Notes under the pieces: model-generated | Database searches by the model: none | What the model was told of the DNA's origin: nothing | Seen by the model: only the letters and a program-made list of their open reading frames with translations | Made by a program: the position numbers and the translations under genes | DNA from: a virus | Direction: 5' to 3' (one strand) | Virus genome (UHGV): UHGV-0071988 | DNA: 16,916 bases | Part shown: in pieces, positions 2,587 through 16,916 of the stretch | How the letters are laid out: each line of letters opens with the position of its first letter | Numbering within the stretch: position 1 is the stretch's first letter

Positions 2587-2808
2587 TTAATGCTCGCGTC
2601 GTCCGGCGACAACTTCGGATTTGTATTTCAGGTCGCCCAGCAAGAATTGCAGTTTAAGCATCTTTGCCGCCGTGTAGTTCCCTGATTCCACAACCTCTTT
2701 CATGAGGTCATAAACGGCCGCTACATCATCAGCCAGGAACTCTTTGCGTTGCTGCTCTGTCGCACGTTTGAAGGAAATACGCATTACTTTACGGTCTTGT
2801 TCTTTCAT
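2587..2808 (-). CDS. Small basic protein (73 aa), possibly ribbon-helix-helix DNA-binding
   Basis: ORF with SD GGAGA 8 nt upstream. N-terminus KVMRISFKRATEQQRKEF resembles a beta-strand followed by a helix (RHH-like); this is tentative. First gene behind duplicated promoter copy A. Confidence 0.6.
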   Translation of the reverse strand: MKEQDRKVMRISFKRATEQQRKEFLADDVAAVYDLMKEVVESGNYTAAKMLKLQFLLGDLKYKSEVVAGRREH

Positions 2809-2815
2809 CGGGTTA

Positions 2816-2925
2816 TCTCCGGTTTAACCAGGGCGGGTATCGCTCGGTTTCGGGTATAACCTTAGGAAATTTTTTCCCACTTGTAAAGCGCTTTTTATAT
2901 AAATCTATAATTATATAATTCTATA
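2816..2925 (-). promoter_or_regulatory. Duplicated promoter/leader element, copy A (TTTACA-N17-TAAGGT plus upstream AT-rich palindromic site and shared 5' UTR)
   Basis: Near-identical (3-4 differences by eye) to 9538-9647. Minus-strand -35 TTTACA = 2882-2887, -10 TAAGGT = 2859-2864, 17-bp spacer. Leader ends in SD GGAGA before the 73-aa gene. Confidence 0.55.
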
Positions 2926-3532
2926 CCGCTTGCCAGAGAGCATCATGCAACTGGATACCTCCATTGCACTGGTTGCCCCAGCCATGCCAGCCATCAGGTA
3001 AATCACCGCGAGCAAACAGCTCAATACGAGGAACATCACCTAACAGCCTTACCAGCTTGTCACGAACCACATCAGGCTTCCGAGAATGCTCCAGACGAGG
3101 CGATGTAAACGACTGAATGATCCCCGCATCAAGGCGGGTCGGCAATTTGCCTTTTACCGCAAACAAGCAATCTTCACTGTTTGCACGAGTCATATGCCCC
3201 ATCCCCATCACCAGCTTATCTGGTTGTCGGCTACCACATTTGTTCCATGTGAAGCCCTTCATGGTCATCAGCCTGAATCCCCATGCTTTCACCACCAGCA
3301 ACGCTTCTTCTGGCTGAGTCGGAACCCACCACATGGCCAACAAACACGATTCAGGATTAGCAAGCTGCCAGACAGGAATACGAGCAATATCCTCAGCTTT
3401 CATCGTTGGATACTTAAAACCAGCGCCACGATTCCCATCCTTACACTTGTCTTTGTATTCCCAGGGGGGATCTGCATAAATCAGATTAAACAATGCAATT
3501 GCCTCCATGTTAGTTGTGTCTCCGGCAGTCAT
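2921..3532 (-). CDS. DNA N6-adenine methyltransferase, MT-A70 family
   Basis: Motif NLIYADPPWEY (DPPW catalytic motif) followed by YPTMKAEDIARIPV and LLAMWW, typical of MT-A70-type phage adenine MTases. Start is uncertain: ATG at 3532 (MTAGD) or 3508 (MEAIA); the track's 3643 start adds an implausible hydrophobic extension. Confidence 0.8.
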   Translation of the reverse strand: MTAGDTTNMEAIALFNLIYADPPWEYKDKCKDGNRGAGFKYPTMKAEDIARIPVWQLANPESCLLAMWWVPTQPEEALLVVKAWGFRLMTMKGFTWNKCGSRQPDKLVMGMGHMTRANSEDCLFAVKGKLPTRLDAGIIQSFTSPRLEHSRKPDVVRDKLVRLLGDVPRIELFARGDLPDGWHGWGNQCNGGIQLHDALWQAV

Positions 3533-3803
3533 AACTCTGGCCAGCTCTACAGCAAACACAACGAAAAGGGCACTAACCAGACTGATTAATGCCCTTGCCT
3601 GTTGTGTGCCGGATATCGCCCGACAACGCTGTTTTGGTAACACGGCTACAGTTCCGTGCCGCTCCAGCTTTTACCCCTTTGCGGATAACAGGCCCTGCCT
3701 GTAACTTAGCCCCACGTTCGCCCGAAATGCGCACCAGGCACGCATAAAGATGAGCACGAAGGAAGTAACTCCACCGCGCTTATCTTTATGTGTGAGAGTG
3801 AAT

Positions 3804-3879
3804 TGGTGGCCCCTACCGGATTTGAACCGATGACCGTGCGATTATGAGTCGCCTGCTCTAACCACTGAGCTAAGGGGCC
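3804..3879 (-). tRNA. tRNA with anticodon CAU, tRNA-Ile2 (lysidine-type)-like; 76 nt including encoded CCA
   Basis: Minus-strand sequence GGCCCCTTAGCTCAGTGGTTAGAGCAGGCGACTCATAATCGCACGGTCATCGGTTCAAATCCGGTAGGGGCCACCA folds as a cloverleaf (7-bp acceptor stem, D-arm GCTC/GAGC, anticodon loop CTCATAA, T-loop TTCAAAT). Acceptor stem and D-arm match E. coli ileX as recalled from memory; Met isotype not excluded. Confidence 0.85.
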
Positions 3880-4018
3880 ATATTTGATCTGTTTGTCTGG
3901 TGTGGCGCCGCGCACGAAAACCCCAGCCAATAAATTCAGGATTTTTGGGCGCGGCGGCATATCAGACAAACATGGTTGATGCGTGCGCTCATGAGAAAAG
4001 CGCATAGAATGTTGTAAC

Positions 4019-4052
4019 TATACATTTATATAATTATAGAAATATATATTAC
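4019..4052. repeat. AT-rich palindromic site C (member of the dispersed TATAGA/TTATATAA family)
   Basis: TACATTTATATAATTATAGAAATATATATT; shares TACATTTATATAA with site D and TTATATAATTATAGA modules with sites A, B, E, G. Confidence 0.5.
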
Positions 4053-6032: not shown

Positions 6033-6218
6033 CTACAGCTTATATAAGTGGTTTTTCCAGCGGTTTTGCGCCGCGCTGCGCTTATCTTTGACTCCCTCTC
6101 TGGCAATTCCAGAAAATGAGAACAACACCACACGGCGATTGCTAACTCTCAACCACTGGCTGGGATAGCAAAGTCTGTATACACGGGAGATAAGCATCTT
6201 AGCTTTACGGTTTTTCAT
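6033..6218 (-). CDS. Possible small basic protein (61 aa)
   Basis: Internal ATG of track ORF 6033-6311 with SD GGAGAG 6-8 nt upstream: MKNRKAKMLISRVYRL... Overlaps the stop of the 6205-6816 gene by 14 nt. Confidence 0.25.
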   Translation of the reverse strand: MKNRKAKMLISRVYRLCYPSQWLRVSNRRVVLFSFSGIAREGVKDKRSAAQNRWKNHLYKL

Positions 6219-7742: not shown

Positions 7743-8108
7743 TCACTTCAACTCCTCCCGACGACGTTCCTGAAGCTCTAGCATTGCGGCTCGGAAATCC
7801 TGCCACCATTCCTCATCTGCAACGGGGGTGTTTCGCTCCAGCACCTTGTCCACATCAGCGATCAGGTTTGCCAGACTCTTGTCTGAAATCTTCGTTACCG
7901 GAGTCGTTGGTTGCTCAACCTGCCCGATAGGTTTTATCGTGCTCAAAAGGAGGCGACGGCTGGAAAGTGGCGACCCACAACGGCGCCCATCTTCCTTGCG
8001 ATATGTTTCTTTCGGACCAACACACCAGGTTGTCGGCGTTTCGCGTAACTTCACTTTTTTCTCACCATCAATGGTGATGATTATTCCGGTATGGGTTTTG
8101 ATGCTCAT
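7743..8108 (-). CDS. Hypothetical protein (121 aa)
   Basis: ORF with SD GAGAGGGG 7 nt upstream; ATG overlaps the stop of the PapI-like gene (ATGA). Charged C-terminal tail. No family recognised. Confidence 0.6.
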   Translation of the reverse strand: MSIKTHTGIIITIDGEKKVKLRETPTTWCVGPKETYRKEDGRRCGSPLSSRRLLLSTIKPIGQVEQPTTPVTKISDKSLANLIADVDKVLERNTPVADEEWWQDFRAAMLELQERRREELK

Positions 8109-8386
8109 GCCACAGCCCCTCTCAACGGCTTAACTTTGGCTAATAAGGTGTTAAACAACATGGAGTTAGGATTCATGCCAAATGGCAATTCCGGTTTAGC
8201 GGAGTAGTACAGGCAACCATTTATTTTCCTGGTTGTTATCTGTCCTTCGGCAACCATGCTTCTCAGTCTGCAACGCATAGAGTTCTGCGACACACCAATG
8301 TGCTCCGCGATTACGTCCACTTTTGAACATGGGTGATCGGTCAGGAAATTAATCACATCTTGGGGGTTAATAATTTTGCGTTTCAT
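8105..8386 (-). CDS. PapI/FaeA-like winged-helix DNA-binding protein (93 aa)
   Basis: Start at MKRKIINPQD (SD AAGGA). Segment VINFLTDHPCSKVDVIAEHIGVSQNSMRCRLRSMVAEGQITTR aligns by eye with the PapI core [43 protein letters not shown], recalled from memory. Confidence 0.55.
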   Translation of the reverse strand: MKRKIINPQDVINFLTDHPCSKVDVIAEHIGVSQNSMRCRLRSMVAEGQITTRKINGCLYYSAKPELPFGMNPNSMLFNTLLAKVKPLRGAVA

Positions 8387-8398
8387 TGTCGAGGCGTC

Positions 8399-8435
8399 CT
8401 TATACATTTATATAAATATATAATTCTATATACGG
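8399..8435. repeat. AT-rich palindromic site D (promoter-proximal, upstream of the PapI-like gene)
   Basis: CTTATACATTTATATAAATATATAATTCTATATAC; shares TACATTTATATAA with site C and TATATAATTCTATA with site A. Confidence 0.5.
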
Positions 8436-8463: not shown

Positions 8464-9531
8464 TCAGGCTTTCAATAGCGATTCTTTCAGATATCGGGCA
8501 TCAGCCAGGGCGTTTGGAGTAATCTTGCGAACCCATGCATTACGGGTTGGACTCCACTTAAAGGCGCGTGATTTAAGCAGCGAACGAATGTTTGCCTCTG
8601 GTTTGCCAGGGAAATAAAACAGGATGCGGTTATCCTCTGGATCTACCTCCATAGAAAAGCCGTCGTATTCTTCGCGCTGTGATCCTGTTACAGACTTGAC
8701 CGATTCAAGCTCTTTAATACGGCTCTGTAGGCGTTTGATTTCGGCGTTATTGTTACTCAGTGAGTATGAAGGAAAGCCAATGTGCCCACAGAAATCTCCG
8801 GCGAGTAACTCTTTGGCTTCGCTTTCAGTAAACTCAAGGTCAATTAATGCGGAAAGCTGCTGTAATTGGTCTTTTTTGTATTTGCGAATAGCCTTATTTG
8901 CGGCCTTCATTTTGATGTGTGACTTCATGCAGCCTTGCAGCTTACGAAGCAACTTAAATAGCGCATCAGGATCATCAGACGAAACTCCATTACGGCCGAC
9001 ACCTGCGGCTTTGCTTTCGTAGTACGATGCTCTGCTTTCACACTCAACAAACGATTTTCTGAATAACGCATCAGCTTTAGACAAACGGCGGCGATGGCCT
9101 TTCGCGCTATAATGGTCAACTAAAATCGGCTGGCCTAACGGGATCACATCCAACAGTTCATGCGCTCGCTTATGCGCCACCGCACCTTCTTTTCTGGCTT
9201 TTTCTGCACGAGCAATATATCGGGCAAGACGCGCGTTCTGGCGTTCCTGATAGGTATTTACGTAATCATCTCCGCGCTGCTGCTGTTCAAGCCATGCTTT
9301 GCGCAGCTTTTCTGTTACGTCTACCAACTCCGCAGGGATACAACCTGTTTGGGATTCATAAGAGTGACCATCCTCATAAAGACGTCCATCGTCTTCAACA
9401 ACGAAAAAGGTTTCGTGCTCATCGCTTTTGACCATACGGCCATTAACATGACGTAATCTATAGCCAGTATCAGTGCTCAACAGGCTGTTAGGGTTGTTGA
9501 TCCAGTCAGAAATAATTACTTGTTTATTCAT
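8464..9531 (-). CDS. Conserved hypothetical protein (355 aa); possibly DUF3560-like
   Basis: Long ORF with SD GGAGA; first gene behind duplicated promoter copy B. C-terminal LFYFPGKPEANIRSLLKSRAFKWSPTRNAWVRK looks like a conserved motif; family assignment is from memory and uncertain. Confidence 0.75.
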   Translation of the reverse strand: MNKQVIISDWINNPNSLLSTDTGYRLRHVNGRMVKSDEHETFFVVEDDGRLYEDGHSYESQTGCIPAELVDVTEKLRKAWLEQQQRGDDYVNTYQERQNARLARYIARAEKARKEGAVAHKRAHELLDVIPLGQPILVDHYSAKGHRRRLSKADALFRKSFVECESRASYYESKAAGVGRNGVSSDDPDALFKLLRKLQGCMKSHIKMKAANKAIRKYKKDQLQQLSALIDLEFTESEAKELLAGDFCGHIGFPSYSLSNNNAEIKRLQSRIKELESVKSVTGSQREEYDGFSMEVDPEDNRILFYFPGKPEANIRSLLKSRAFKWSPTRNAWVRKITPNALADARYLKESLLKA

Positions 9532-9537
9532 CAGATT

Positions 9538-9647
9538 TCTCCGGTTTAACCAGGGCGGGTATCGCTCGGTTTCGGGTATAACCTTAGGAAAATTTTTCCC
9601 ACCTGTAAAGCACTTTTTATATAAATCTATAATTATATATTTATAGA
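9538..9647 (-). promoter_or_regulatory. Duplicated promoter/leader element, copy B (TTTACA-N17-TAAGGT), immediately downstream of the Q-like gene
   Basis: Near-identical to 2816-2925. Minus-strand -35 = 9604-9609, -10 = 9581-9586. Contains the near-perfect inverted repeat AAATCTATAA-ttatatat-TTATAGATTT (9623-9650). Confidence 0.55.
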
Positions 9648-9700
9648 TTTCCGATATTCCCGGTGCCTACAAATCACCAAAACAGCTCAAAATGACACTT

Positions 9701-11560: not shown

Positions 11561-12051
11561 TCCTCAAGCCTCCCAAGTGCTGAACGCCGGGCGTTGCTAA
11601 TCTCCTTATGAATCAGCTCGATATCGCTGGAATCTTTATTCTTAAGCTCCAGCACGGTAATCGCATCACGAACCTCTGAAACGGTTACGTGTGAGTGTTT
11701 CCAGCGAGCAATGAATCGCGGACCGCGTAGATTGCAACGCTCCGCAGGCATCCCCAGCTCAGAGAAAACCGCTTTCAGCCTTGATAAGCAGTTAACAGGG
11801 AGATTCCCTTTGATCTTGTTCTGCCGAACCGATGTGCCATCGCTACGCTGGCGCTGACGTTCGGCAAAATCTGCCGCCCATTGCTGGACGTTAATCCGGC
11901 CTTCCGAATACGCCACCAGCAGCGTCAGGTTATCCGCACGAGGGAATCTCTCGAAGCGATACCAGGCACCAATCAGTGATGACGTAAAGCCAAACTTTCT
12001 GGCAACACCAATTTGGCCTCCATTTTCGTCAACCCACTCCTGAAAGGTCAT
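11557..12051 (-). CDS. Cro/CII-like HTH DNA-binding regulator (164 aa), divergent from the CI-like repressor
   Basis: N-terminal GGQIGVARKFGFTSSLIGAWYRF resembles a Cro-type helix-turn-helix. First gene of the leftward operon from the operator region. SD CTGGAG 8 nt upstream. Confidence 0.6.
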   Translation of the reverse strand: MTFQEWVDENGGQIGVARKFGFTSSLIGAWYRFERFPRADNLTLLVAYSEGRINVQQWAADFAERQRQRSDGTSVRQNKIKGNLPVNCLSRLKAVFSELGMPAERCNLRGPRFIARWKHSHVTVSEVRDAITVLELKNKDSSDIELIHKEISNARRSALGRLEE

Positions 12052-12070
12052 TTAACGAACTCCAGTTAAA

Positions 12071-12114
12071 ACCACGATATGTGGTATTAAAACCACACAT
12101 CGTGAGTTTTTCAA
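12071..12114 (-). promoter_or_regulatory. PR-like promoter (-35 TTGAAA, 17-bp spacer, -10 TTTAAT) with operators O1 and O2
   Basis: Minus-strand -35 at 12109-12114 and -10 at 12086-12091. O2 (ACCACacatcGTGAG, 12092-12106) fills the spacer; O1 (ACCACgatatGTGGT, 12071-12085) covers the start region. Centres 21 bp apart. Confidence 0.5.
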
Positions 12115-12173
12115 TGGGCGAAACAAAAAATAACCTTCTATTTGTGGTCCACCTCTCGTCTTACCATGTGAAA

Positions 12174-12199
12174 ACCACTAAATGTGGTAATGTATAAAT
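12174..12199 (+). promoter_or_regulatory. Operator O3 (ACCACtaaatGTGGT) with putative extended -10 (TGtATAAAT) for the cI-like gene
   Basis: O3 at 12174-12188, followed by TG plus ATAAAT at 12191-12199, about 27 bp upstream of the CI start codon. Confidence 0.4.
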
Positions 12200-12225
12200 A
12201 ACCCACCATTCACGATTGATGAGAC

Positions 12226-12882
12226 ATGAAAAGCAACGACGAGAACATCAAGAAAGAAATAGGTCTGCGCATTCAGACTCTACGGAAACAATCCGGCATG
12301 ACTGCCGGAGATCTCCAGCAAGTCACTGGAATAGGCTTAAGCACCTTGCAGAACTATGAGGCCGGATTAAGACAACCATCTATACCTGCCATCAAGAAAA
12401 TCGCGCACGCCCTGAAAGCATCAGCGCCTTATATCGCGTGCTTAACAGATAACCCGTTCCCATCCCAGAATACTAACGCTCCTGTTATTCCTGGGCTTGT
12501 AGCTATAAAAAATGACATAGCATCGCACGCCGGAGAAAAGCCAGTGCTGGCGATAGAACAGGAGATTCTACGAAGCAAGAACATCAACCCATCGTCTCTG
12601 TTAGTTCTCCAGAGCAACGATGAGTTAATGTCACCAACAATATACCCTGGCTCCCAAGTCCTGATTAATACAGACGATACAGAGATTCATGAGGGGATCT
12701 ATGCCCTTGAAGACAGAAATGGCCTGGTTGTTTTGAGGCACTGTAGAGTCATACCGGGTGACAATGCTGTTATGCTGTCAACCGAAAGGGATGCTGAAAT
12801 GAACACTAAGCATCTGAATAACGAGGAATTTAAGCGTTATAAAGTTCTTGGCCGCGTAGTTAGTGTTGTCAACTGGTTATGA
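12226..12882 (+). CDS. CI-like phage repressor (N-terminal HTH_XRE, C-terminal S24 LexA-like peptidase domain)
   Basis: 218 aa. N-terminal IGLRIQTLRKQSGMTAGDLQQVTGIGLSTLQNYEAG is an XRE-type HTH. C-terminal half has LMSPTIYPGSQVLIN (candidate Ser nucleophile) and a later conserved Lys region, typical of autocleaving repressors. Divergent from the Cro-like gene across the operators. Confidence 0.85.
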   Translation: MKSNDENIKKEIGLRIQTLRKQSGMTAGDLQQVTGIGLSTLQNYEAGLRQPSIPAIKKIAHALKASAPYIACLTDNPFPSQNTNAPVIPGLVAIKNDIASHAGEKPVLAIEQEILRSKNINPSSLLVLQSNDELMSPTIYPGSQVLINTDDTEIHEGIYALEDRNGLVVLRHCRVIPGDNAVMLSTERDAEMNTKHLNNEEFKRYKVLGRVVSVVNWL

Positions 12883-12924
12883 TACACAGCACGGCGAAAG
12901 CCGTGCATTTCTACGCTCAAAAAA

Positions 12925-12939
12925 ACCACATTTTGTGGT
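12925..12939. promoter_or_regulatory. Operator O4: ACCACatttt-GTGGT within the perfect palindrome AAAACCACAtttTGTGGTTTT
   Basis: Same 15-bp half-site arrangement as O1-O3; lies between the cI stop and the 12975 gene, overlapping a TTGACA hexamer. Confidence 0.5.
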
Positions 12940-12974
12940 TTTGACAACATGTAAAAGTATAAAAGAGGCTACGC

Positions 12975-13349
12975 ATGGAATTACATACAGCCAATAAAAA
13001 CGAAACTCTGATCACTGCTGGAATCGAAATCCAAGCGTTGAACATAGCGATTGAGTGTATGTTATGCCAAATCATTGATAATGAGAAAGATATCGACTGG
13101 ATAGAATCTATCCTTCATCTGGCATCAGAACAAAAAATCTGCCTCAAAACGGCCTTACAATACGATGTGCCAGCGGTATCGAAGCTGTGCCAGCCATTGA
13201 TGGCATATAACAGAGCTATTATTTCTGTATGCCTCATGATTCTCGATGAAAACACCCCTCTTAGCGACCGCTCAGAAGCTGCTCTAACCCTCTCACGTAA
13301 ACAGCGACAGCTAGCAAATCAACTGATATCAACGATAGCTGACCTCTGA
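12975..13349 (+). CDS. Hypothetical protein (124 aa), downstream of cI
   Basis: ORF with SD AAGAGG 7 nt upstream; AT-rich; predicted helical, no TM segment. Followed by hairpin 13364-13383. Confidence 0.6.
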   Translation: MELHTANKNETLITAGIEIQALNIAIECMLCQIIDNEKDIDWIESILHLASEQKICLKTALQYDVPAVSKLCQPLMAYNRAIISVCLMILDENTPLSDRSEAALTLSRKQRQLANQLISTIADL

Positions 13350-13363
13350 CTGCAAGCGGGCTA

Positions 13364-13383
13364 ACGCCCGCTTACATGATTAT
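13364..13383 (+). terminator. GC-rich hairpin AAGCGGGC-taac-GCCCGCTT (possible terminator of the cI operon)
   Basis: Perfect 8-bp stem 15 nt after the stop of the 124-aa gene; the downstream U-run is poor. Confidence 0.4.
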
Positions 13384-13385
13384 AG

Positions 13386-13475
13386 ATTTATATAATTATA
13401 TAAAACGCTTTTCATCCGTAAAAAAGTTGGTTATGCTTACCTCGTTCTATAAATATAGATTTATAGAATTATATA
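13386..13475. promoter_or_regulatory. parA upstream region with two AT-rich palindromic sites (E: 13386-13414; F: 13445-13468)
   Basis: Site E is gaTTATAGATTTATATAATTATATAAAA. Site F is a perfect 10-bp inverted repeat TTCTATAAAT-atag-ATTTATAGAA. Both lie within 110 bp upstream of the ParA start. Confidence 0.55.
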
Positions 13476-13499
13476 ATCAAACACATGGAGTCTCGACAA

Positions 13500-14153
13500 A
13501 TGACTATCTCTGTAGGTATTTTCAACGGAAAAGGCGGCGTAACCAAATCAACAATTGCCCGTGCTTTAGCAGTTGCTTATGCAAAGGCTGGCTGGAATGT
13601 ATGCCTGATCGATATGGATGTGCTTAACGGAACGGTAACGCGTTGGGTACAACGCAGAATGGCCAACAATATCGAACCAGCAATCGCGGCGCAGCCGTGC
13701 GGCACACCATCACAAGTCCAGAAAATCATCGAATCAGAAGTATACGACCTGGTTATCGTCGATGGCGGTGCCTACGCATCTGAATCAGTACCGAAGCTCT
13801 CTGAATTTCTGGATATGGTTATTTTGCCAACCAGATTCTCTACCGATGACCTGGAAACCACCGTTAACACAGCTCACGGCATCGTTAAAAAGGGTGTACC
13901 AATCAAGAAAATTTGCATGGTGTTTTCCGGCGCGGCTGAAAACGAAGCTGACTATATTGAAGCCCAAGAGTACCTGGCTAATACGCCATACTTTGTTGTC
14001 GATAAGTACATTCCCCACAAGCCAGCTCTGAGCAAAGCTCAGGATAAGGGCTTAAGCCTCATTGAGTGCTCATACGTTGCGCCACGCAAAAAGGCAGACG
14101 ACGTTATTCAGGGGATTATCAACCAGATTGAGGCTCTGACTACTGCCGCGTAA
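13500..14153 (+). CDS. ParA-family partition ATPase, small type Ib (ParF-like)
   Basis: 217 aa from the second ATG (SD GGAG 9 nt upstream). Deviant Walker A GKGGVTKST near the N-terminus; LIDMD and VIVDGG motifs. Followed by a small RHH-like gene. Confidence 0.85.
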   Translation: MTISVGIFNGKGGVTKSTIARALAVAYAKAGWNVCLIDMDVLNGTVTRWVQRRMANNIEPAIAAQPCGTPSQVQKIIESEVYDLVIVDGGAYASESVPKLSEFLDMVILPTRFSTDDLETTVNTAHGIVKKGVPIKKICMVFSGAAENEADYIEAQEYLANTPYFVVDKYIPHKPALSKAQDKGLSLIECSYVAPRKKADDVIQGIINQIEALTTAA

Positions 14154-14186
14154 TATATAATTATAGTTTTATAGATTTATATAAGA
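14151..14186. repeat. AT-rich site G between parA and the RHH gene
   Basis: TAATATATAATTATAGTTTTATAGATTTATATAAGA; contains the core TATAGATTTATATAA (14170-14184) shared with sites A, B and E. Confidence 0.5.
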
Positions 14187-14196
14187 GGTGATACAC

Positions 14197-14445
14197 ATGG
14201 CCGCACCATCAAAACCACCAAAGAAGAACAGCAAAGGCGTACCGCCATCGATCGAACAACCGCAGGTTTTCGACCCGACTGAAACGCCAACCAGAACCAA
14301 ATCAGGTGGGGCACAAATGGCGTTTAACGTCGACCCTGAATTTAAACGCGAGTACAAAACGTTCGCCAGCTCAATGGATATGTCATTGAAAGAAGTGCTG
14401 ACAAAATCTTTTGAGTTACTCAAGGCTCAATACAACCAGAAGTAA
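14197..14445 (+). CDS. ParG-like ribbon-helix-helix partition/centromere-binding protein (82 aa)
   Basis: Start at ATG 14197 (SD AAGAGG 9 nt upstream). Lys/Pro-rich disordered N-terminal tail, then a beta-strand (MAFNVD) and two helices, as in ParG-type type Ib proteins. Confidence 0.55.
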   Translation: MAAPSKPPKKNSKGVPPSIEQPQVFDPTETPTRTKSGGAQMAFNVDPEFKREYKTFASSMDMSLKEVLTKSFELLKAQYNQK

Positions 14446-14507
14446 GAGAAGGTGACGGCCTCCAGCGCCAACTGTTGGCCGTCGCGACACAACAAGGGGA
14501 ATTTGTT

Positions 14508-14657
14508 ATGTCCGAGCAACAATATACACGGTTACTGAAAACTCGTCTAACCGACCTCAAACGGCTGCAAGCTGGTCGCTTATTTGCCCTGCTATCCACC
14601 AGGCCAGAATGGGTACGTGAAGCAGTTCTGAAAGGCTTAATGCGCTCCAGCGTTTAA
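14508..14657 (+). CDS. Possible small protein (49 aa)
   Basis: Internal ATG of track ORF 14475-14657 with SD AGGGGA 8 nt upstream: MSEQQYTRLLKTRLTDLKRL... Ends 10 nt before a strong hairpin. Confidence 0.35.
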   Translation: MSEQQYTRLLKTRLTDLKRLQAGRLFALLSTRPEWVREAVLKGLMRSSV

Positions 14658-14667
14658 ATTCAACCAT

Positions 14668-14689
14668 AAAAAAGGCCCCCGAAGGGGCC
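14668..14689 (-). terminator. Intrinsic terminator, minus-strand oriented (GGCCCC-cgaa-GGGGCC plus U-run)
   Basis: Hairpin at 14674-14689 with A6 on the plus strand at 14668-14673, giving a U-run after the stem for a minus-strand transcript. No U-run in the plus direction. Confidence 0.55.
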
Positions 14690-15204
14690 TAATCGCTACT
14701 TGCTGCTAATGTTTATCGTCACATTCAGAGCGTTATCAGTAATCTTCCAACCCTCTCCATGTGGCGTAAACAAAGCTCCAGTAACAACGATCAAAATACA
14801 TACGTATTTCCTCATTGTATTGGCCCTCGCAGGCCGTTTCACGGCATCTCCACCGACGAAAATGACGCGAGAGCAAGCACACCGCTTGTGCTTGCGTGTA
14901 CGGCAAGTGGATGATCCTTTCCTTAAAGTCGGTGCCCGGGTGCGAATCGGCGAAAAGGCCCCAAGCCATATTACACGTCCTCGCCTTCATAATGAAGGAA
15001 TAACAAATGCTTTTATTACATGTAATTACATCCGAAGAAGTTAAAAAACTTCATTCTGCATGAACTAAGGAACTAAATTTCTTTATATGAATAGTGGACT
15101 ATTCACCTCAGTTGAGTAAGAATAGATACGCCGCTTGTGCTTGCGTGGTTGTTTATACAACGACGTTATGCTGAAAGGACCGCGAATCCGATCAGCACGA
15201 AAGA

Positions 15205-15231
15205 ACCGTCCTCAAAAGGACGGTTTTTTTG
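15205..15231 (+). terminator. Intrinsic terminator, plus-strand oriented (ACCGTCC-tcaaaa-GGACGGT plus T7)
   Basis: Stem 15205-15211 / 15218-15224 followed by TTTTTTT (15224-15230). The stop codon of the minus-strand regulator gene (15212-15214) lies in its loop. Confidence 0.6.
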
Positions 15232-15784
15232 TTTCTTCACTCATTAAAAACCGTCCAAGACCTGTTGATGACTCCAGATAATCTCGATTATCCATATCAG
15301 CACCGTTATCGACCCAATGTCTATATGCTTCATTGCAACAATACATTACAGCAGTTGGAGTAACAGGGAAGCCGCCCCCAAATGAGAATCCCATTGAGCT
15401 AATGCTAATTCTTTCGAATGGCCTATTTCTCAATGCTTCAAACCCCTTACTGTTGAAGTAACTCAGCATCAGAGGCAAAAGGTTATCCTCGTCCTGATCG
15501 ATTGTTCCCGGGAAAAAGTAGTAACCACAGCGATTAAATTCGGGAATCAGTTTTTCTACCAACAACATGAAATTCATTGGGCTAATATTAAGGGCAGAGC
15601 AAGCACCAAAAAGAGCATCAACCGTTAATACAGACTGCCCGTTCTCTATCTTTGTCCATGCGTTTGGTGTTTTTCCGGCAGCTTGAGCCAGTACTCCTTG
15701 ATGCACACCTCTTTCAAGCCTAAGTTCTTTTATGATCATTAGGTGAATTGTTGAAAAACATGAATTTTTTGATGTTTCAGTCAT
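15212..15784 (-). CDS. XRE-family HTH transcriptional regulator with uncharacterised C-terminal domain (190 aa), AT-rich
   Basis: Strong SD GAGGAGG 6 nt upstream. N-terminal IIKELRLERGVHQGVLAQAAGKTPNAWTKIENGQSVLTVDALFGACSALNISP is a Cro/C1-type HTH. Divergent from the antirepressor-like operon. Confidence 0.7.
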   Translation of the reverse strand: MTETSKNSCFSTIHLMIIKELRLERGVHQGVLAQAAGKTPNAWTKIENGQSVLTVDALFGACSALNISPMNFMLLVEKLIPEFNRCGYYFFPGTIDQDEDNLLPLMLSYFNSKGFEALRNRPFERISISSMGFSFGGGFPVTPTAVMYCCNEAYRHWVDNGADMDNRDYLESSTGLGRFLMSEETKKPSF

Positions 15785-15854
15785 TTTTTACCTCCTCTGC
15801 ATTAAATTCACTACCAATTTCCAATCTCAAAAGAAACCACAATCAATACCATCT

Positions 15855-15981
15855 AGTTCCCTACATTCACAGCATACCCAAAAAACTGGATATGAAGCAA
15901 ATTTTTTCGCAAATAAATCACAACAAGTTCCTTATACTCATATATAAGTTCCCTACATTCATATAATGTTCCCAACAATCC
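15855..15981. repeat. Four direct repeats (consensus AGTTCCCTACATTCA), three of them phased at 20-21 bp
   Basis: Identical 15-mers at 15855-15869 and 15947-15961; variants at 15926-15940 (12/15) and 15967-15981 (about 10/15). Located between the XRE regulator gene and the rightward operon. Confidence 0.6.
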
Positions 15982-16358
15982 AGTGTCAAACAAATTTGAT
16001 TGGTCAAATCATGCGCTTAATGAGCAGAAAATTCCGTTTTTCAAACCCACGCTATGTGGTTGTCTCTGTTAAAATCTCGCCGTATTGACATGAATGCGCC
16101 ATTGGTGGACACTTTCCGAGCCGTAGCAAAATCTACGGCCGGGATTGGAACCCCGTAGACACAATGGCGCATACCGCGTTAGCGGTTTTTTTATGCGTAA
16201 AGCACTGCTACACCCAAATTATGGTGGGGCGTGCGGGGGAGTCGTAAGACTCGCCGGTTCGTCATTGTGTCCGGTAGTTCCAACCCTGCACGTCTCACCA
16301 CCCAATGATTGGAACCTGACGGTGGTGAGTATCCTTAACCTTTAAGGGAATCATCACA

Positions 16359-16550
16359 ATGACAAACCTACCCCATGACTATTACGTCAACCTCGTAAAG
16401 ATCCTTCTCAAGAAAGCCTCATACGCCGATAAATTCCGCCTGGCTGAAATAATCGAGCGCGAAGCTATGCGCATCGCCAGCAACGATAACGCTGTTTCTG
16501 ACGCAAAAATCTCCCTCGTAACCAAAGTAGTTATGGGAGGTGCAAAATGA
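16359..16550 (+). CDS. Hypothetical small protein (63 aa)
   Basis: ORF with SD AAGGGAA; stop overlaps the start of the next gene (ATGA). Confidence 0.5.
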   Translation: MTNLPHDYYVNLVKILLKKASYADKFRLAEIIEREAMRIASNDNAVSDAKISLVTKVVMGGAK

Positions 16551-16864
16551 AAACGCTTCCGACCGTTAACACCCTACAGCCTATCCTGCATAACCAAATC
16601 CCTGTCATTACTACCGAGTTACTGGCACAGCTTTACGGCGTATCTCCTGTACGCATTCGACAAAATCATCATGAGAATAAGGAACGCTTCATTGAAGGTA
16701 AGCACTACTTCAAAATTGAAGGTAACGAACTTCGAGAGTTAAAGCACAAAGTGACTCAAGATAATGATGTGAAGAACAAAAACTCTTTAAGAGATTCAGT
16801 TAATGACGCCCCCTCTAAAAGAGAGAGCGTCGAGCACAGAGTAGTTTTAAACTACTCTGTTTGA
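16547..16864 (+). CDS. ORF6N/KilA-N-like domain protein (antirepressor-like N-terminal domain, 105 aa)
   Basis: SD GGGAGG 6 nt upstream. Segment ITTELLAQLYGVSPVRIRQNHHENKERFIEGKHYFKIEGNELRELK matches my recollection of the ORF6N/Bro-N-type domain found at the N-terminus of phage antirepressors. Confidence 0.55.
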   Translation: MKTLPTVNTLQPILHNQIPVITTELLAQLYGVSPVRIRQNHHENKERFIEGKHYFKIEGNELRELKHKVTQDNDVKNKNSLRDSVNDAPSKRESVEHRVVLNYSV

Positions 16865-16916
16865 AGTGGCACACTGAATTTGGCCACCTGAACAGAGGTG
16901 ATATGCTCACCTCAGA

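What the first reader, a model, noticed from the sequence alone, without database searches (positions are those of the whole stretch)
13386..14186. A family of AT-rich palindromic sites marks the par operon and four other promoters
Seven sites are built from the same modules (TATAGATTTATATAA, TACATTTATATAA, TTATATAATTCTATA). Three lie in the par operon: E 13386-13414, F 13445-13468 (perfect 10-bp inverted repeat with 4-bp spacer) and G 14151-14186. Four lie elsewhere, each directly upstream of a minus-strand promoter or RBS: A 2891-2927, C 4019-4052, D 8399-8435 and B 9613-9652 (near-perfect inverted repeat). The 15-mer TATAGATTTATATAA recurs exactly in A, B, E and G. Type Ib partition systems use a small RHH protein that binds repeats upstream of parA as both centromere and operator. 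The dispersed copies suggest the ParG-like protein (or another AT-hook-type regulator) also touches late and cargo promoters, as the dispersed SopB sites do in phage N15. Plain AT-rich promoter composition cannot explain exact 13-15-mer reuse.
Basis: partly seen in the sequence, partly recalled or inferred. Interest (0 to 1): 0.7.

Follow-up and report, generated by a model that had tools for sequence, protein, structure and literature searches.

The report
Partition repressor sites across a phage-plasmid
A ~48-kb E. coli phage-plasmid carries eight identical-style 32-bp DNA arrays (seven in this window), three at its plasmid-partition operon and five in front of other genes. Comparative evidence indicates that the small ribbon-helix-helix partition protein binds all of them, so the protein that segregates the plasmid probably also controls several accessory genes.

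Summary
The window holds exactly seven 32-bp arrays. Each is four phased 8-bp units, (T/A)TATA(G/T)A(A/T), in direct or inverted orientation. They score 36-46 bits with a PWM built from the par-locus units alone; locally shuffled sequence reaches at most about 21. The complete element (96% identical to the 48.5-kb plasmid of E. coli ATCC 25922) has an eighth array and none in its structural genes.

The 82-aa product of 14197-14445 is a ribbon-helix-helix protein with a disordered N-tail, distantly ParG-like, encoded directly after a 217-aa ParA. In seven other replicons examined, homologous ParA-RHH pairs carry 8-bp-unit arrays upstream of parA and/or just before the two ribosome-binding sites. 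The unit sequence changes with the residues of the RHH ribbon.

In four phage-plasmid lineages with different units, the dispersed arrays always use the unit of their own par locus. CI, the 124-aa ORF and the HTH proteins do not track the motif.

Best reading: a type Ib centromere-binding protein that autoregulates par and also controls three single-gene 'moron' promoters, a tRNA-Met promoter and one operon junction. This resembles omega of pSM19035. No array lies near late genes. Binding and repression are inferred, not shown.

The parts
13372..13403 (+). Array E: four 8-bp units (TTACATGA TTATAGAT TTATATAA TTATATAA). It ends 5 nt upstream of the par promoter -35.
   Evidence: PWM 38.4 bits; position read from the sequence
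13409..13437 (+). Putative par promoter: -35 TTTTCA (13409-13414), 17-bp spacer, -10 TATGCT (13432-13437).
   Evidence: Read. The hexamers occupy the same position behind the array as in cassettes A, B and H; the alignment is only loose here. No TSS data.
13445..13476 (+). Array F: TTCTATAA ATATAGAT TTATAGAA TTATATAA. It lies from about +1 to +32 of the par transcript and is followed by the RBS block GGAGTCTCGACAAATG.
   Evidence: PWM 45.2 bits; perfect 10-bp inverted repeat with 4-bp spacer
13500..14153 (+). parA: a 217-aa Walker-type partition ATPase with no N-terminal HTH (type Ib).
   Evidence: Pfam CbiA 1.5e-12; NF041546 ParA_partition over its full length, 4.3e-22; PDB ParF 4dzz 3e-4
14153..14184 (+). 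Array G: ATATATAA TTATAGTT TTATAGAT TTATATAA. It lies between the parA stop and the RBS (GAGG) of the RHH gene.
   Evidence: PWM 43.0 bits. The same position is occupied by arrays in L019, L018, L022, L023 and L024.
14197..14445 (+). 82-aa centromere-binding protein. Residues 1-39 are disordered, 40-46 form the ribbon (QMAFNVD), and helices span 47-59 and 64-80.
   Evidence: AF2 model with pLDDT >90 over residues 41-80; top Foldseek PDB hits are nearly all RHH proteins (PutA, CdbA, CopG, AmrZ, Arc); family profile against ParG 1P94, prob 77%, E 2e-5; RHH_10 in 32/61 relatives
9617..9648 (-). Array B, in front of type-1 cassette B.
   Evidence: PWM 45.7 bits
9529..9616 (-). Cassette B: -35 TTTACA (9609-9604), spacer with palindrome AGGAAAATTTTTCC, -10 TAAGGT (9586-9581), ~50-nt conserved leader, RBS AACCGGAGA (9546-9538), ATG 9531. 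It drives the DUF3560 gene (8464-9531).
   Evidence: DUF3560 Pfam 3.8e-31
8400..8431 (-). Array D (type-2 cassette). It is followed directly by AAGGACGCCTCGACAATG, the RBS and start of the 93-aa wHTH/MarR-like gene (8105-8386). No recognisable promoter lies between it and the DUF3560 stop.
   Evidence: PWM 40.5 bits; sequence; phrog_1687
4018..4049 (-). Array C. It overlaps the -10 (TATAAT, 4038-4033) and spacer of a sigma-70-like promoter (-35 CTGCCA, 4061-4056) that reads into tRNA-Met (3804-3879).
   Evidence: PWM 36.3 bits; promoter scan; tRNA
2895..2926 (-). Array A, in front of type-1 cassette A.
   Evidence: PWM 43.2 bits
2806..2894 (-). Cassette A: -35 TTTACA (2887-2882), palindrome TGGGAAAAAATTTCC in the spacer, -10 TAAGGT (2864-2859), leader, RBS AACCGGAGA (2824-2816), ATG 2808. 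It drives a 73-aa gene (2587-2808), which is followed by an intrinsic terminator (2565-2542).

Best explanation
**What it is.** The window is part of a ~48.5-kb myovirus-type phage-plasmid. Its type Ib partition operon encodes a small ParA and an 82-aa ribbon-helix-helix centromere-binding protein (CBP).

**Proposed binding mode.**
- The CBP binds as dimers to 8-bp units, (T/A)TATA(G/T)A(A/T), that always occur as four contiguous units (32 bp).
- I infer one dimer per unit, coating the DNA cooperatively. ParG does this on ACTC boxes spaced 8 bp apart, and omega does it on 7-bp heptads.

**At the par locus.**
- Arrays E and F bracket the core promoter, at about -39 to -70 and +1 to +32. They give negative autoregulation and serve as the centromere.
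- Array G sits just before the CBP's own RBS.

**Elsewhere on the element.** The same arrays have been copied to five other places:
- Arrays A, B and H each lie upstream of the -35 of one of three copies of a portable promoter-leader-RBS cassette. Each copy drives a single accessory gene. H lies outside the window.
- Array C lies over the core of the tRNA-Met promoter.
- Array D lies directly before the RBS of the gene that follows DUF3560.

**Consequence.** Because the units are the same, the CBP must occupy these sites whenever it occupies the centromere. The most likely effect is repression that scales with CBP level, that is, with plasmid copy number. That would give a burst of expression on entry into a naive cell and low expression in the established plasmid state. 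The dispersed arrays may also act as auxiliary centromeres.

**Shown here.** The arrays, their exclusivity, their positions, the RHH fold, the synteny and the co-variation.

**Inferred.** Binding, stoichiometry, repression and centromere activity.
For: **1. The arrays are discrete and specific.**
- There are 7 in the window and 8 per genome.
- They score 27-46 bits, against at most 22 in local shuffles.
- Nothing else in the 48.5 kb exceeds the local-shuffle maximum.

**2. The 82-aa protein is an RHH protein with a ParG-like flexible tail**. It is encoded directly after a 217-aa ParA.

**3. Synteny and architecture are conserved.**
- In seven other loci with different neighbours, the RHH homologue always follows a 212-217-aa ParA.
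- Arrays of 8-bp units lie upstream of parA and/or just before the two RBSs.
- Halomonas plasmid L019 is the clearest case.

**4. Ribbon residues track the unit sequence.** Residues are given at window positions 40/42/44.

| Ribbon (40/42/44) | Unit |
|---|---|
| Q, A/S, N | TTATA(G/T)A |
| P/L/A, N, N | TTAAA(T/G)A |
| P, N, K | TAACGA |
| P, N, R | TAACGC |
| Q, K, G | GGTAYAAA |

The ribbon is the known specificity determinant of RHH proteins (PMC3413123).

**5. Dispersed arrays match their own par locus.**
- This holds in four phage-plasmid lineages.
- Their 7-mers are 73-92% shared with their own par arrays.
- Sharing with other specificity groups is only 4-56%.

**6. The motif tracks par, not the other regulators.**
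- Salmonella pAR-0407-1 has the same motif as the window.
- It keeps the RHH at 93% and ParA at 96% identity.
- CI is 65%, the 124-aa ORF 60%, the wHTH 62% and HTH90 71% identical.
- The 190-aa HTH is absent.

**7. CI has its own, different operators**, ACCAC-N5-GTGGT.

**8. There is direct precedent.**
- Omega arrays lie upstream of three promoters and act as both operators and centromeres, and at least 4 contiguous repeats are needed (PMC3074150, PMC9499535).
- ParG uses 8-bp spaced boxes with one dimer per box (PMC3130281).
Against: - There is no experimental binding, expression or stability data for this element. Literature searches found none.
- The query protein itself hits no Pfam RHH model. 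It reaches ParG only through a family profile, at moderate confidence.
- Arrays A, B and H lie upstream of the -35, not over the core promoter. Those promoters also carry a separate conserved palindrome in the spacer, which may be the real repressor site. The arrays there could therefore be neutral, activating, or purely centromeric.
- Arrays D and G have no adjacent promoter, so their role is unclear.
- The ribbon/unit correlation rests on about 10 loci and 5 specificity classes. It also assumes which ribbon residues face the DNA.
Confidence: 0.72

Rival explanations
1. The dispersed arrays are bound by the RHH protein but act only as extra centromeres, like the four scattered sopC sites of N15. 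They would have no meaningful effect on transcription.
For: - Arrays A, B and H lie outside the core promoter.
- Arrays D and G have no promoter.
- Every array has exactly four units, which is the minimum that activates the ParA ATPase in pSM19035 (PMC9499535).
- In TP228 and pSM19035 the operator arrays are themselves competent centromeres (PMC3130281, PMC3074150).
Against: - Every dispersed array sits at a precise, conserved distance from a -35, a -10 or an RBS, and travels as part of promoter/RBS cassettes.
- Array C overlaps a -10.
- Pure centromeres would not need such placement.
- In the omega precedent the same sites do both jobs.
Confidence: 0.15
2. A different element-encoded regulator binds the arrays, and the RHH protein uses some other centromere. 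Candidates are CI, the 124-aa ORF upstream of parA, the 93-aa wHTH after array D, or one of the HTH proteins.
For: - The phage-plasmids encode several HTH proteins.
- The 124-aa ORF sits directly upstream of array E and has no assigned function.
Against: - Arrays accompany ParA-RHH pairs in replicons that lack all of these proteins.
- The motif is unchanged in Salmonella, where CI, the 124-aa ORF and the HTH proteins have diverged to 60-71% or are absent.
- CI has its own operator family.
- No other repeats near par could serve as a centromere.
Confidence: 0.06
3. The arrays are AT-rich UP elements or sites for host nucleoid proteins (H-NS, Fis, IHF), or simply copies of a duplicated promoter cassette with no dedicated binder.
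For: - Arrays A, B, E and H occupy the UP-element position.
- The A and B cassettes are 95% identical over 108 nt, so some exact k-mer reuse is paralogy.
Against: - Arrays are strictly phased 8-bp units with sharp 32-bp borders.
- Arrays F, G, D and C are not at UP positions.
- The unit sequence differs between elements living in closely related hosts and even becomes GC-containing (TAACGC, GGTAC). It always matches the element's own par locus and the RHH ribbon.
- Host factors are conserved across these hosts (established knowledge).
Confidence: 0.05

Closest known systems
Omega (ParB) / delta (ParA) of Streptococcus pyogenes plasmid pSM19035 (type Ib; omega is called a global regulator)
   Same: - The RHH centromere-binding protein has a disordered N-tail.
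- It binds contiguous short repeats in direct and inverted orientation.
- The arrays lie in the upstream region of several promoters. They serve as both operators and centromeres.
- Four contiguous repeats are the functional minimum (PMC3074150, PMC9499535).
- Here every array has exactly four units, and arrays sit upstream of the par promoter and other promoters.
   Different: - The unit is 8 bp, not 7 bp.
- No detectable sequence homology to omega was found (no Omega_Repress hit).
- The host is a Gram-negative phage-plasmid.
- There are eight arrays, five of them outside par.
- The targets are accessory 'moron' genes and a tRNA, not copy control or toxin-antitoxin genes.
- There are additional arrays placed directly before RBSs (F, G, D).
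ParF/ParG/parH-OF of plasmid TP228 (type Ib)
   Same: - The fold and domain layout match (flexible tail plus RHH). The family profile aligns to the whole ParG RHH domain.
- A small ParA gene lies upstream.
- Binding boxes have 8-bp periodicity, with one dimer per box and mixed orientation.
- The operator doubles as a centromere (PMC3130281).
   Different: - The relationship is only distant. The query does not reach Pfam ParG.
- TP228 has one long array of 20 boxes at the par locus only. Here there are discrete 4-unit arrays in an E/F/G arrangement plus dispersed copies.
- The unit core is TATA(G/T)A rather than ACTC.
Dispersed sopC centromeres of linear phage-plasmid N15 (type Ia SopAB), and KorB OB sites scattered on IncP-1 RK2
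   Same: - Sites for a partition protein are scattered over a mobile element and placed near promoters.
- Segregation is thereby linked to gene expression (cited in PMC5016525; details from my own knowledge).
   Different: - Those proteins are large HTH ParB/KorB proteins that bind single palindromes and spread.
- Here a small RHH protein binds 4-unit arrays.
- There is no homology.

Membership tests
Type Ib plasmid partition system | Small Walker-type ParA (~200-230 aa) without an N-terminal HTH domain | tested here: met
   The protein is 217 aa. The CbiA domain starts at residue 7. NF041546 ParA_partition matches positions 2-200 of 203 at E 4.3e-22, below the equivalog cut-off. ParF 4dzz matches at E 3e-4.
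Type Ib plasmid partition system | Small centromere-binding protein with an RHH fold, encoded directly downstream of parA | tested here: met
   The AF2 model shows a ribbon at 40-46 and two helices. The top 50 Foldseek PDB hits are almost all RHH proteins, with target TM-scores mostly 0.6-0.85. hhalign against ParG gives prob 77%, E 2e-5. RHH_10 is found in 32/61 relatives. Synteny holds in 7 other loci.
Type Ib plasmid partition system | Repeated binding sites next to the operon that act as centromere and operator | tested here: inconclusive
   Arrays E, F and G are present and conserved in architecture. Centromere and operator activity cannot be tested in silico.
Type Ib plasmid partition system | The CBP binds the repeats, stimulates the ParA ATPase and stabilises the plasmid | not testable with these tools
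   This needs EMSA or footprinting, ATPase assays and stability assays.
ParG family (Pfam PF09274, TP228 ParG) | Sequence matches the ParG profile at its curated threshold | tested here: not met
   The query has no Pfam hit even at E<=10. Only 5 of 61 relatives touch PF09274, best E 2.7e-4. The PDB profile search puts ParG first but at E 0.17. I therefore treat it as a distant relative, not a member.
Omega-type global regulator (pSM19035) | Arrays of at least 4 contiguous short repeats in the upstream regions of several promoters besides par | tested here: met
   There are eight 4-unit arrays. A, B, H and E end 5-7 nt upstream of a -35, and C overlaps a -10.
Omega-type global regulator (pSM19035) | Homology to omega (Omega_Repress) | tested here: not met
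   No Omega_Repress family appears among the Pfam hits of the query or its 61 relatives.
Omega-type global regulator (pSM19035) | The protein represses the array-bearing promoters | not testable with these tools
   This needs reporter fusions or RNA-seq with and without the RHH gene.
N15-type dispersed centromeres (type Ia) | Large HTH ParB/SopB protein and palindromic sopC-type sites | tested here: not met
   The CBP is an 82-aa RHH protein. The sites are 4 x 8-bp arrays.

The most novel reading that the evidence does not exclude
The RHH partition protein is the master 'plasmid-state' regulator of a widespread family of enterobacterial phage-plasmids.

- Its 32-bp arrays are built into portable operator-promoter-leader-RBS cassettes that are pasted in front of accessory or anti-defence genes. 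Examples are DUF3560, a tRNA-Met and, in Serratia, Lar restriction alleviation.
- These genes would fire in a burst when the phage-plasmid enters a CBP-free cell. They would then be throttled in proportion to copy number.
- When the ribbon changes specificity, the whole set of arrays on the element is re-written in concert. This would expose a simple, readable RHH ribbon-to-DNA code: position 42 A/S vs N corresponds to T vs A at unit position 4, and position 44 N vs K vs R corresponds to AT/AG vs CGA vs CGC.
Probability: 0.35. Interest if true: 0.75.

Novelty: new variant of a known kind. Interest (0 to 1): 0.6.

Why it matters
- **Known principle, new setting.** A centromere-binding protein that doubles as a global regulator is known from omega, KorB and N15 SopB. 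It has not been described for this ParA-RHH family or for these phage-plasmids. Relatives occur in at least 63 PLSDB plasmids, including the plasmid of the reference strain ATCC 25922.
- **Biological consequence.** If confirmed, plasmid segregation, copy number and expression of accessory genes on a phage-plasmid would be linked through one 82-aa protein.
- **A modular regulon.** The operator-promoter cassettes appear to evolve in concert with the par locus.
- **A specificity series.** The natural series of ribbon/unit pairs could be used to read or engineer RHH DNA specificity.
- **Easy to test.** All of this can be tested with simple experiments in E. coli.

Tried and rejected
**Searches that gave little or nothing**
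- phmmer of the 82-aa protein against PDB, and a profile of close homologues, found no ParG. The 61-sequence family profile was needed.
- The word-indexed protein search with the single query found only close relatives of 79% identity or more.
- The search for related loci with the broad alignment failed because it had no conserved stretch. With the narrow alignment, genome contigs gave a single locus.
- Literature searches for this phage-plasmid, its accession or the Yersinia phages found nothing on its regulation.

**Hypotheses considered and rejected**
- CI as the binder. It has its own ACCAC-N5-GTGGT operators.
- RepA iterons. No arrays lie near repA, and arrays follow par in replicons with unrelated Rep proteins.
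- ParA as the binder. It has no HTH domain.
- Phage late promoters. No arrays lie in the structural region.
- The ORF at 3706-4005(-) as the target of array C. A tRNA-Met gene lies there instead.

**Not attempted.** I did not try to resolve the binder of the spacer palindrome or the structure of the leader.
Full report
**1. Where the window comes from**

Bases 12000-16916 are 96% identical to a 48,488-bp circular plasmid of E. coli ATCC 25922 (NZ_CP009073, L001). They are also about 96% identical to Yersinia phages vB_YpM_39/41/44. The annotated records show a myovirus-type structural module, RepA, HigBA, a CI-like repressor, ParA plus a small ORF, an early operon, lysis genes and ParB/Srx-like genes. 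This is a phage-plasmid. The window is inverted relative to L001 and covers the non-structural half.

**2. The observation**

- The 15-mer TATAGATTTATATAA occurs exactly four times. With up to 3 mismatches there are 25 hits against 0.55 expected.
- TTATATAA occurs 10 times against 0.33 expected.
- Read in the direction of the downstream genes, the sites are four contiguous 8-bp units, (T/A)TATA(G/T)A(A/T), in either orientation.
- I built a PWM from the 11 par-locus units only, so that the test is not circular. Scored over four phased units, it finds exactly seven arrays in the window:

| Array | Coordinates |
|---|---|
| A | 2895-2926 |
| C | 4018-4049 |
| D | 8400-8431 |
| B | 9617-9648 |
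| E | 13372-13403 |
| F | 13445-13476 |
| G | 14153-14184 |

- The scores are 36-46 bits, and the neighbouring 'fifth' units score negative (-0.7 to -17.1 bits).
- In the complete genomes L001, L002 and the Salmonella relative L004, the PWM finds exactly eight arrays each (27-44 bits). The maximum in 50 shuffles that preserve local composition is 20-22 bits.
- No array lies in the structural genes.
- The eighth array (H, L001 16204-16235) lies just outside the window, after the HigBA genes.
- Part of the exact k-mer reuse is paralogy. A and B belong to a 108-nt repeat that is 95% identical.

**3. Anatomy of the sites**

*Type-1 cassette (A, B, H).* The order is array, then 7 nt, then -35 TTTACA, then a 17-bp spacer holding a palindrome (GGAAA..TTTCC), then -10 TAAGGT, then a conserved leader of about 50 nt, then RBS AACCGGAGA, then ATG.
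- A drives a 73-aa gene followed by a strong terminator.
- B drives a DUF3560 gene.
- H drives a 124-aa gene.
- These look like single-gene 'morons'.

*The par promoter.* E has the same hexamer layout behind its array (-35 TTTTCA, 17 bp, -10 TATGCT) but lacks the palindrome. F replaces the leader, at about +1 to +32.

*Type-2 cassette (F, D).* The array is followed directly by an RBS block, GGAnnC(T)CGACAA(A)TG. The same block recurs in Serratia and in L016.

*G.* It abuts the RBS of the small gene.

*C.* It overlaps the -10 (TATAAT) of a promoter-like site that reads into a tRNA-Met gene at 3804-3879. The ORF at 3706-4005 there is spurious.

**4. The proteins**

- The product of 13500-14153 is a 217-aa Walker-type ParA without an HTH domain.
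- The 82-aa product of 14197-14445 has no Pfam hit itself.
- It belongs to a family of 92 representative clusters of small proteins.
- With a 61-sequence alignment, AlphaFold gives a disordered tail (1-39), an extended ribbon (40-46) and two helices (47-59, 64-80), with pLDDT above 90 over the folded part.
- The top Foldseek PDB hits are almost all RHH proteins, including the PutA DNA-binding domain, CdbA, CopG, AmrZ, Arc and ParD. RMSD is typically 1.1-2.6 Å over about 43 residues.
- The family profile aligns to the entire RHH domain of TP228 ParG, whose sequence I verified as 1P94. The alignment has probability 77% and E 2e-5.
- Of the 61 relatives, 32 hit RHH_10, 18 hit Antitox_RHH and 5 hit ParG.
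- It is thus a ParG-like RHH centromere-binding protein by fold and layout. It is not a member of the ParG Pfam family.

**5. Who binds the arrays**

*(a) Architecture follows the gene pair.*
- In seven other loci the RHH homologue always follows a 212-217-aa ParA. These loci include a Halomonas plasmid, Rep3 plasmids and a phage-like contig, all with different neighbouring genes.
- Halomonas L019 shows the complete layout: four GCGTTAWW units upstream of the promoter, four inverted units abutting the parA RBS, and four abutting the RHH RBS.
- The other loci show 8-bp-unit arrays at one or more of these positions.

*(b) The unit co-varies with the ribbon*. Residues are given at window positions 40/42/44.

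| Ribbon (40/42/44) | Loci | Unit |
|---|---|---|
| Q, A/S, N | E. coli, Salmonella | TTATA(G/T)A |
| P/L/A, N, N | Serratia, L016, Pantoea | TTAAA(T/G)A |
| P, N, K | L020, L022, L023 | TAACGA |
| P, N, R | L018, L019, L021 | TAACGC |
| Q, K, G | L024 | GGTAYAAA |

In RHH proteins the ribbon is the principal and transplantable specificity determinant (PMC3413123).

*(c) Dispersed arrays match their own par locus.*
- This was checked in four phage-plasmid lineages that share the cI-par-early-gene backbone.
- They share 73-92% of their 7-mers with their own par arrays. Sharing with other specificity groups is 4-56% (sequences).

*(d) The motif tracks par, not the other regulators.* Salmonella pAR-0407-1 has the same motif as the window.

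| Protein | Identity in pAR-0407-1 |
|---|---|
| RHH | 93% |
| ParA | 96% |
| CI | 65% |
| 124-aa ORF | 60% |
| 93-aa wHTH | 62% |
| HTH90 | 71% |
| 190-aa HTH | absent |

*(e) CI has a distinct operator family.* ACCAC-N5-GTGGT occurs at 12071, 12174 and 12925.

Host factors cannot explain element-specific units in closely related hosts. I conclude that the RHH protein is the binder (about 85% confidence).

**6. Mechanism**

Two well-studied type Ib systems serve as analogies.
- In TP228, one ParG dimer binds per ACTC box. The boxes are spaced 8 bp apart, the operator doubles as a centromere, and parFG is repressed (PMC3130281).
- In pSM19035, omega binds 7-10 contiguous heptads in the upstream regions of the copS, delta and omega promoters. 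These sites are both operators and centromeres, and at least four contiguous repeats are needed to activate ParA (PMC3074150, PMC9499535).

The proposal for this element:
- E and F give autoregulation of par and form the centromere.
- The five extra arrays place three moron promoters, the tRNA-Met promoter and the junction after DUF3560 under the same protein.
- Repression proportional to CBP level is the most likely outcome.
- It is strongest for C, where the array lies over the core promoter. It is plausible for A, B and H, where the array occupies the position used by omega. It is unclear for D and G, which may act as roadblocks or pure centromeres.
- An auxiliary centromere role is not excluded.

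All functional steps are inferred.

**7.

- Right: the site family, the type Ib assignment, the RHH guess, and the idea of a shared binder reaching beyond par.
- Wrong or imprecise: there are no late promoters among the targets, the coordinates of E are shifted, the sites are unit arrays rather than palindromes, and N15 is a looser precedent than omega.

**8. Extent of dispersal**

- Within the roughly 13-20 kb held for ordinary plasmid loci (L018, L019, L021, L024), I found arrays only at par.
- One extra array occurs in phage-like L022 and one in the Bacteroidota plasmid L023.
- Extensive dispersal (4-5 extra arrays) is so far a feature of the enterobacterial phage-plasmids. Only partial contigs were available for the other elements.

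**9. Novelty**

The principle is known. This ParA-RHH family, its E/F/G architecture, the portable array-promoter cassettes and the ribbon/unit series are not described in the searchable literature. I rate it a new variant of a known kind, with interest 0.6.

Noticed in passing
window 2859-2887 and 9581-9609; similar 15896-15911; L003/L004/L016 cassettes: The 17-bp spacer of every type-1 cassette promoter holds a palindrome. Its arms co-vary between lineages: GGAAA..TTTCC in E. coli and Salmonella, TAGGA..TCCTA in Serratia, ATAGGTC..GACCTAT in L016. It does not track the RHH specificity and is absent from the par promoter. It looks like the operator of a second, unidentified repressor.
   Followed up: partly
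window 2806-2858 and 9529-9580; L001 16250-16330: A conserved leader of about 50 nt ends in RBS AACCGGAGA-N6-7-ATG and is shared by unrelated genes. Between E. coli (AACC..GGTT) and Serratia/L016 (GGCC..GGCC / GACC..GGTC) there is an apparent compensatory change that suggests a small hairpin next to the RBS. This was not analysed further.
   Followed up: no
window 13487-13502 and 8387-8399(-); L003 ~22100 and ~27710; L016 ~9335 and ~3260: A second portable block, GGAnnC(T)CGACAA(A)TG (RBS plus start), follows type-2 arrays at parA and at an unrelated downstream gene in three lineages. It may be a module-exchange boundary or a translational signal.
   Followed up: partly
window 3804-3879 (-): A tRNA-Met (CAT) gene has its own promoter (overlapped by array C) and a terminator-like hairpin at 3596-3566. 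The 99-aa ORF at 3706-4005(-) that covers it is probably not a gene. A 34-nt inverted repeat (3890-3923 / 3939-3972) lies just upstream of the tRNA.
   Followed up: partly
window 12071-12085, 12092-12106, 12174-12188, 12925-12939: ACCAC-N5-GTGGT palindromes occur 5 times at up to 1 mismatch, against 0.27 expected. Two exact copies plus a degenerate third lie in the divergent cI/early-operon region, and one lies between cI and the 124-aa ORF. These are likely CI/Cro operators.
   Followed up: partly
window 16120-16192 and 16217-16305 (+): Rfam finds IsrK (70 bits) and C4 antisense RNA (78 bits) side by side. An ORF6N antirepressor gene is annotated just beyond this region in L001. This is a P1/P7/P22-type immI antirepressor control module in this phage-plasmid.
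   Followed up: no
window 14668-14963 (-): There is a full-length match to the ryfA sRNA family (133 bits, E 2e-34), immediately downstream of and convergent with the RHH gene. The region is unannotated in the reference plasmid.
   Followed up: no
window 16860-16916: The last ~57 bases match IS911 as annotated in Shigella phage Sf6 (100% identity). The many (>2500) plasmid hits to the query are probably due to this. This copy of the phage-plasmid seems to carry an IS insertion that ATCC 25922 lacks.
   Followed up: no
L023 13832-13853; L022 3132-3153: Single off-par arrays of the local unit type also occur elsewhere. One lies in a Bacteroidota Rep3 plasmid, just upstream of a TonB-dependent receptor gene. 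One lies in a phage-like contig, just before the RBS of a small gene. Recruitment of extra genes by this RHH family may therefore be more general.
   Followed up: partly
window 6040-6047 and 15940-15947: These are the only two isolated single units (TTATATAA, ATATATAA) outside arrays. The second lies near the palindrome-like site at 15896-15911, upstream of the 190-aa HTH gene. They are probably not functional on their own.
   Followed up: no
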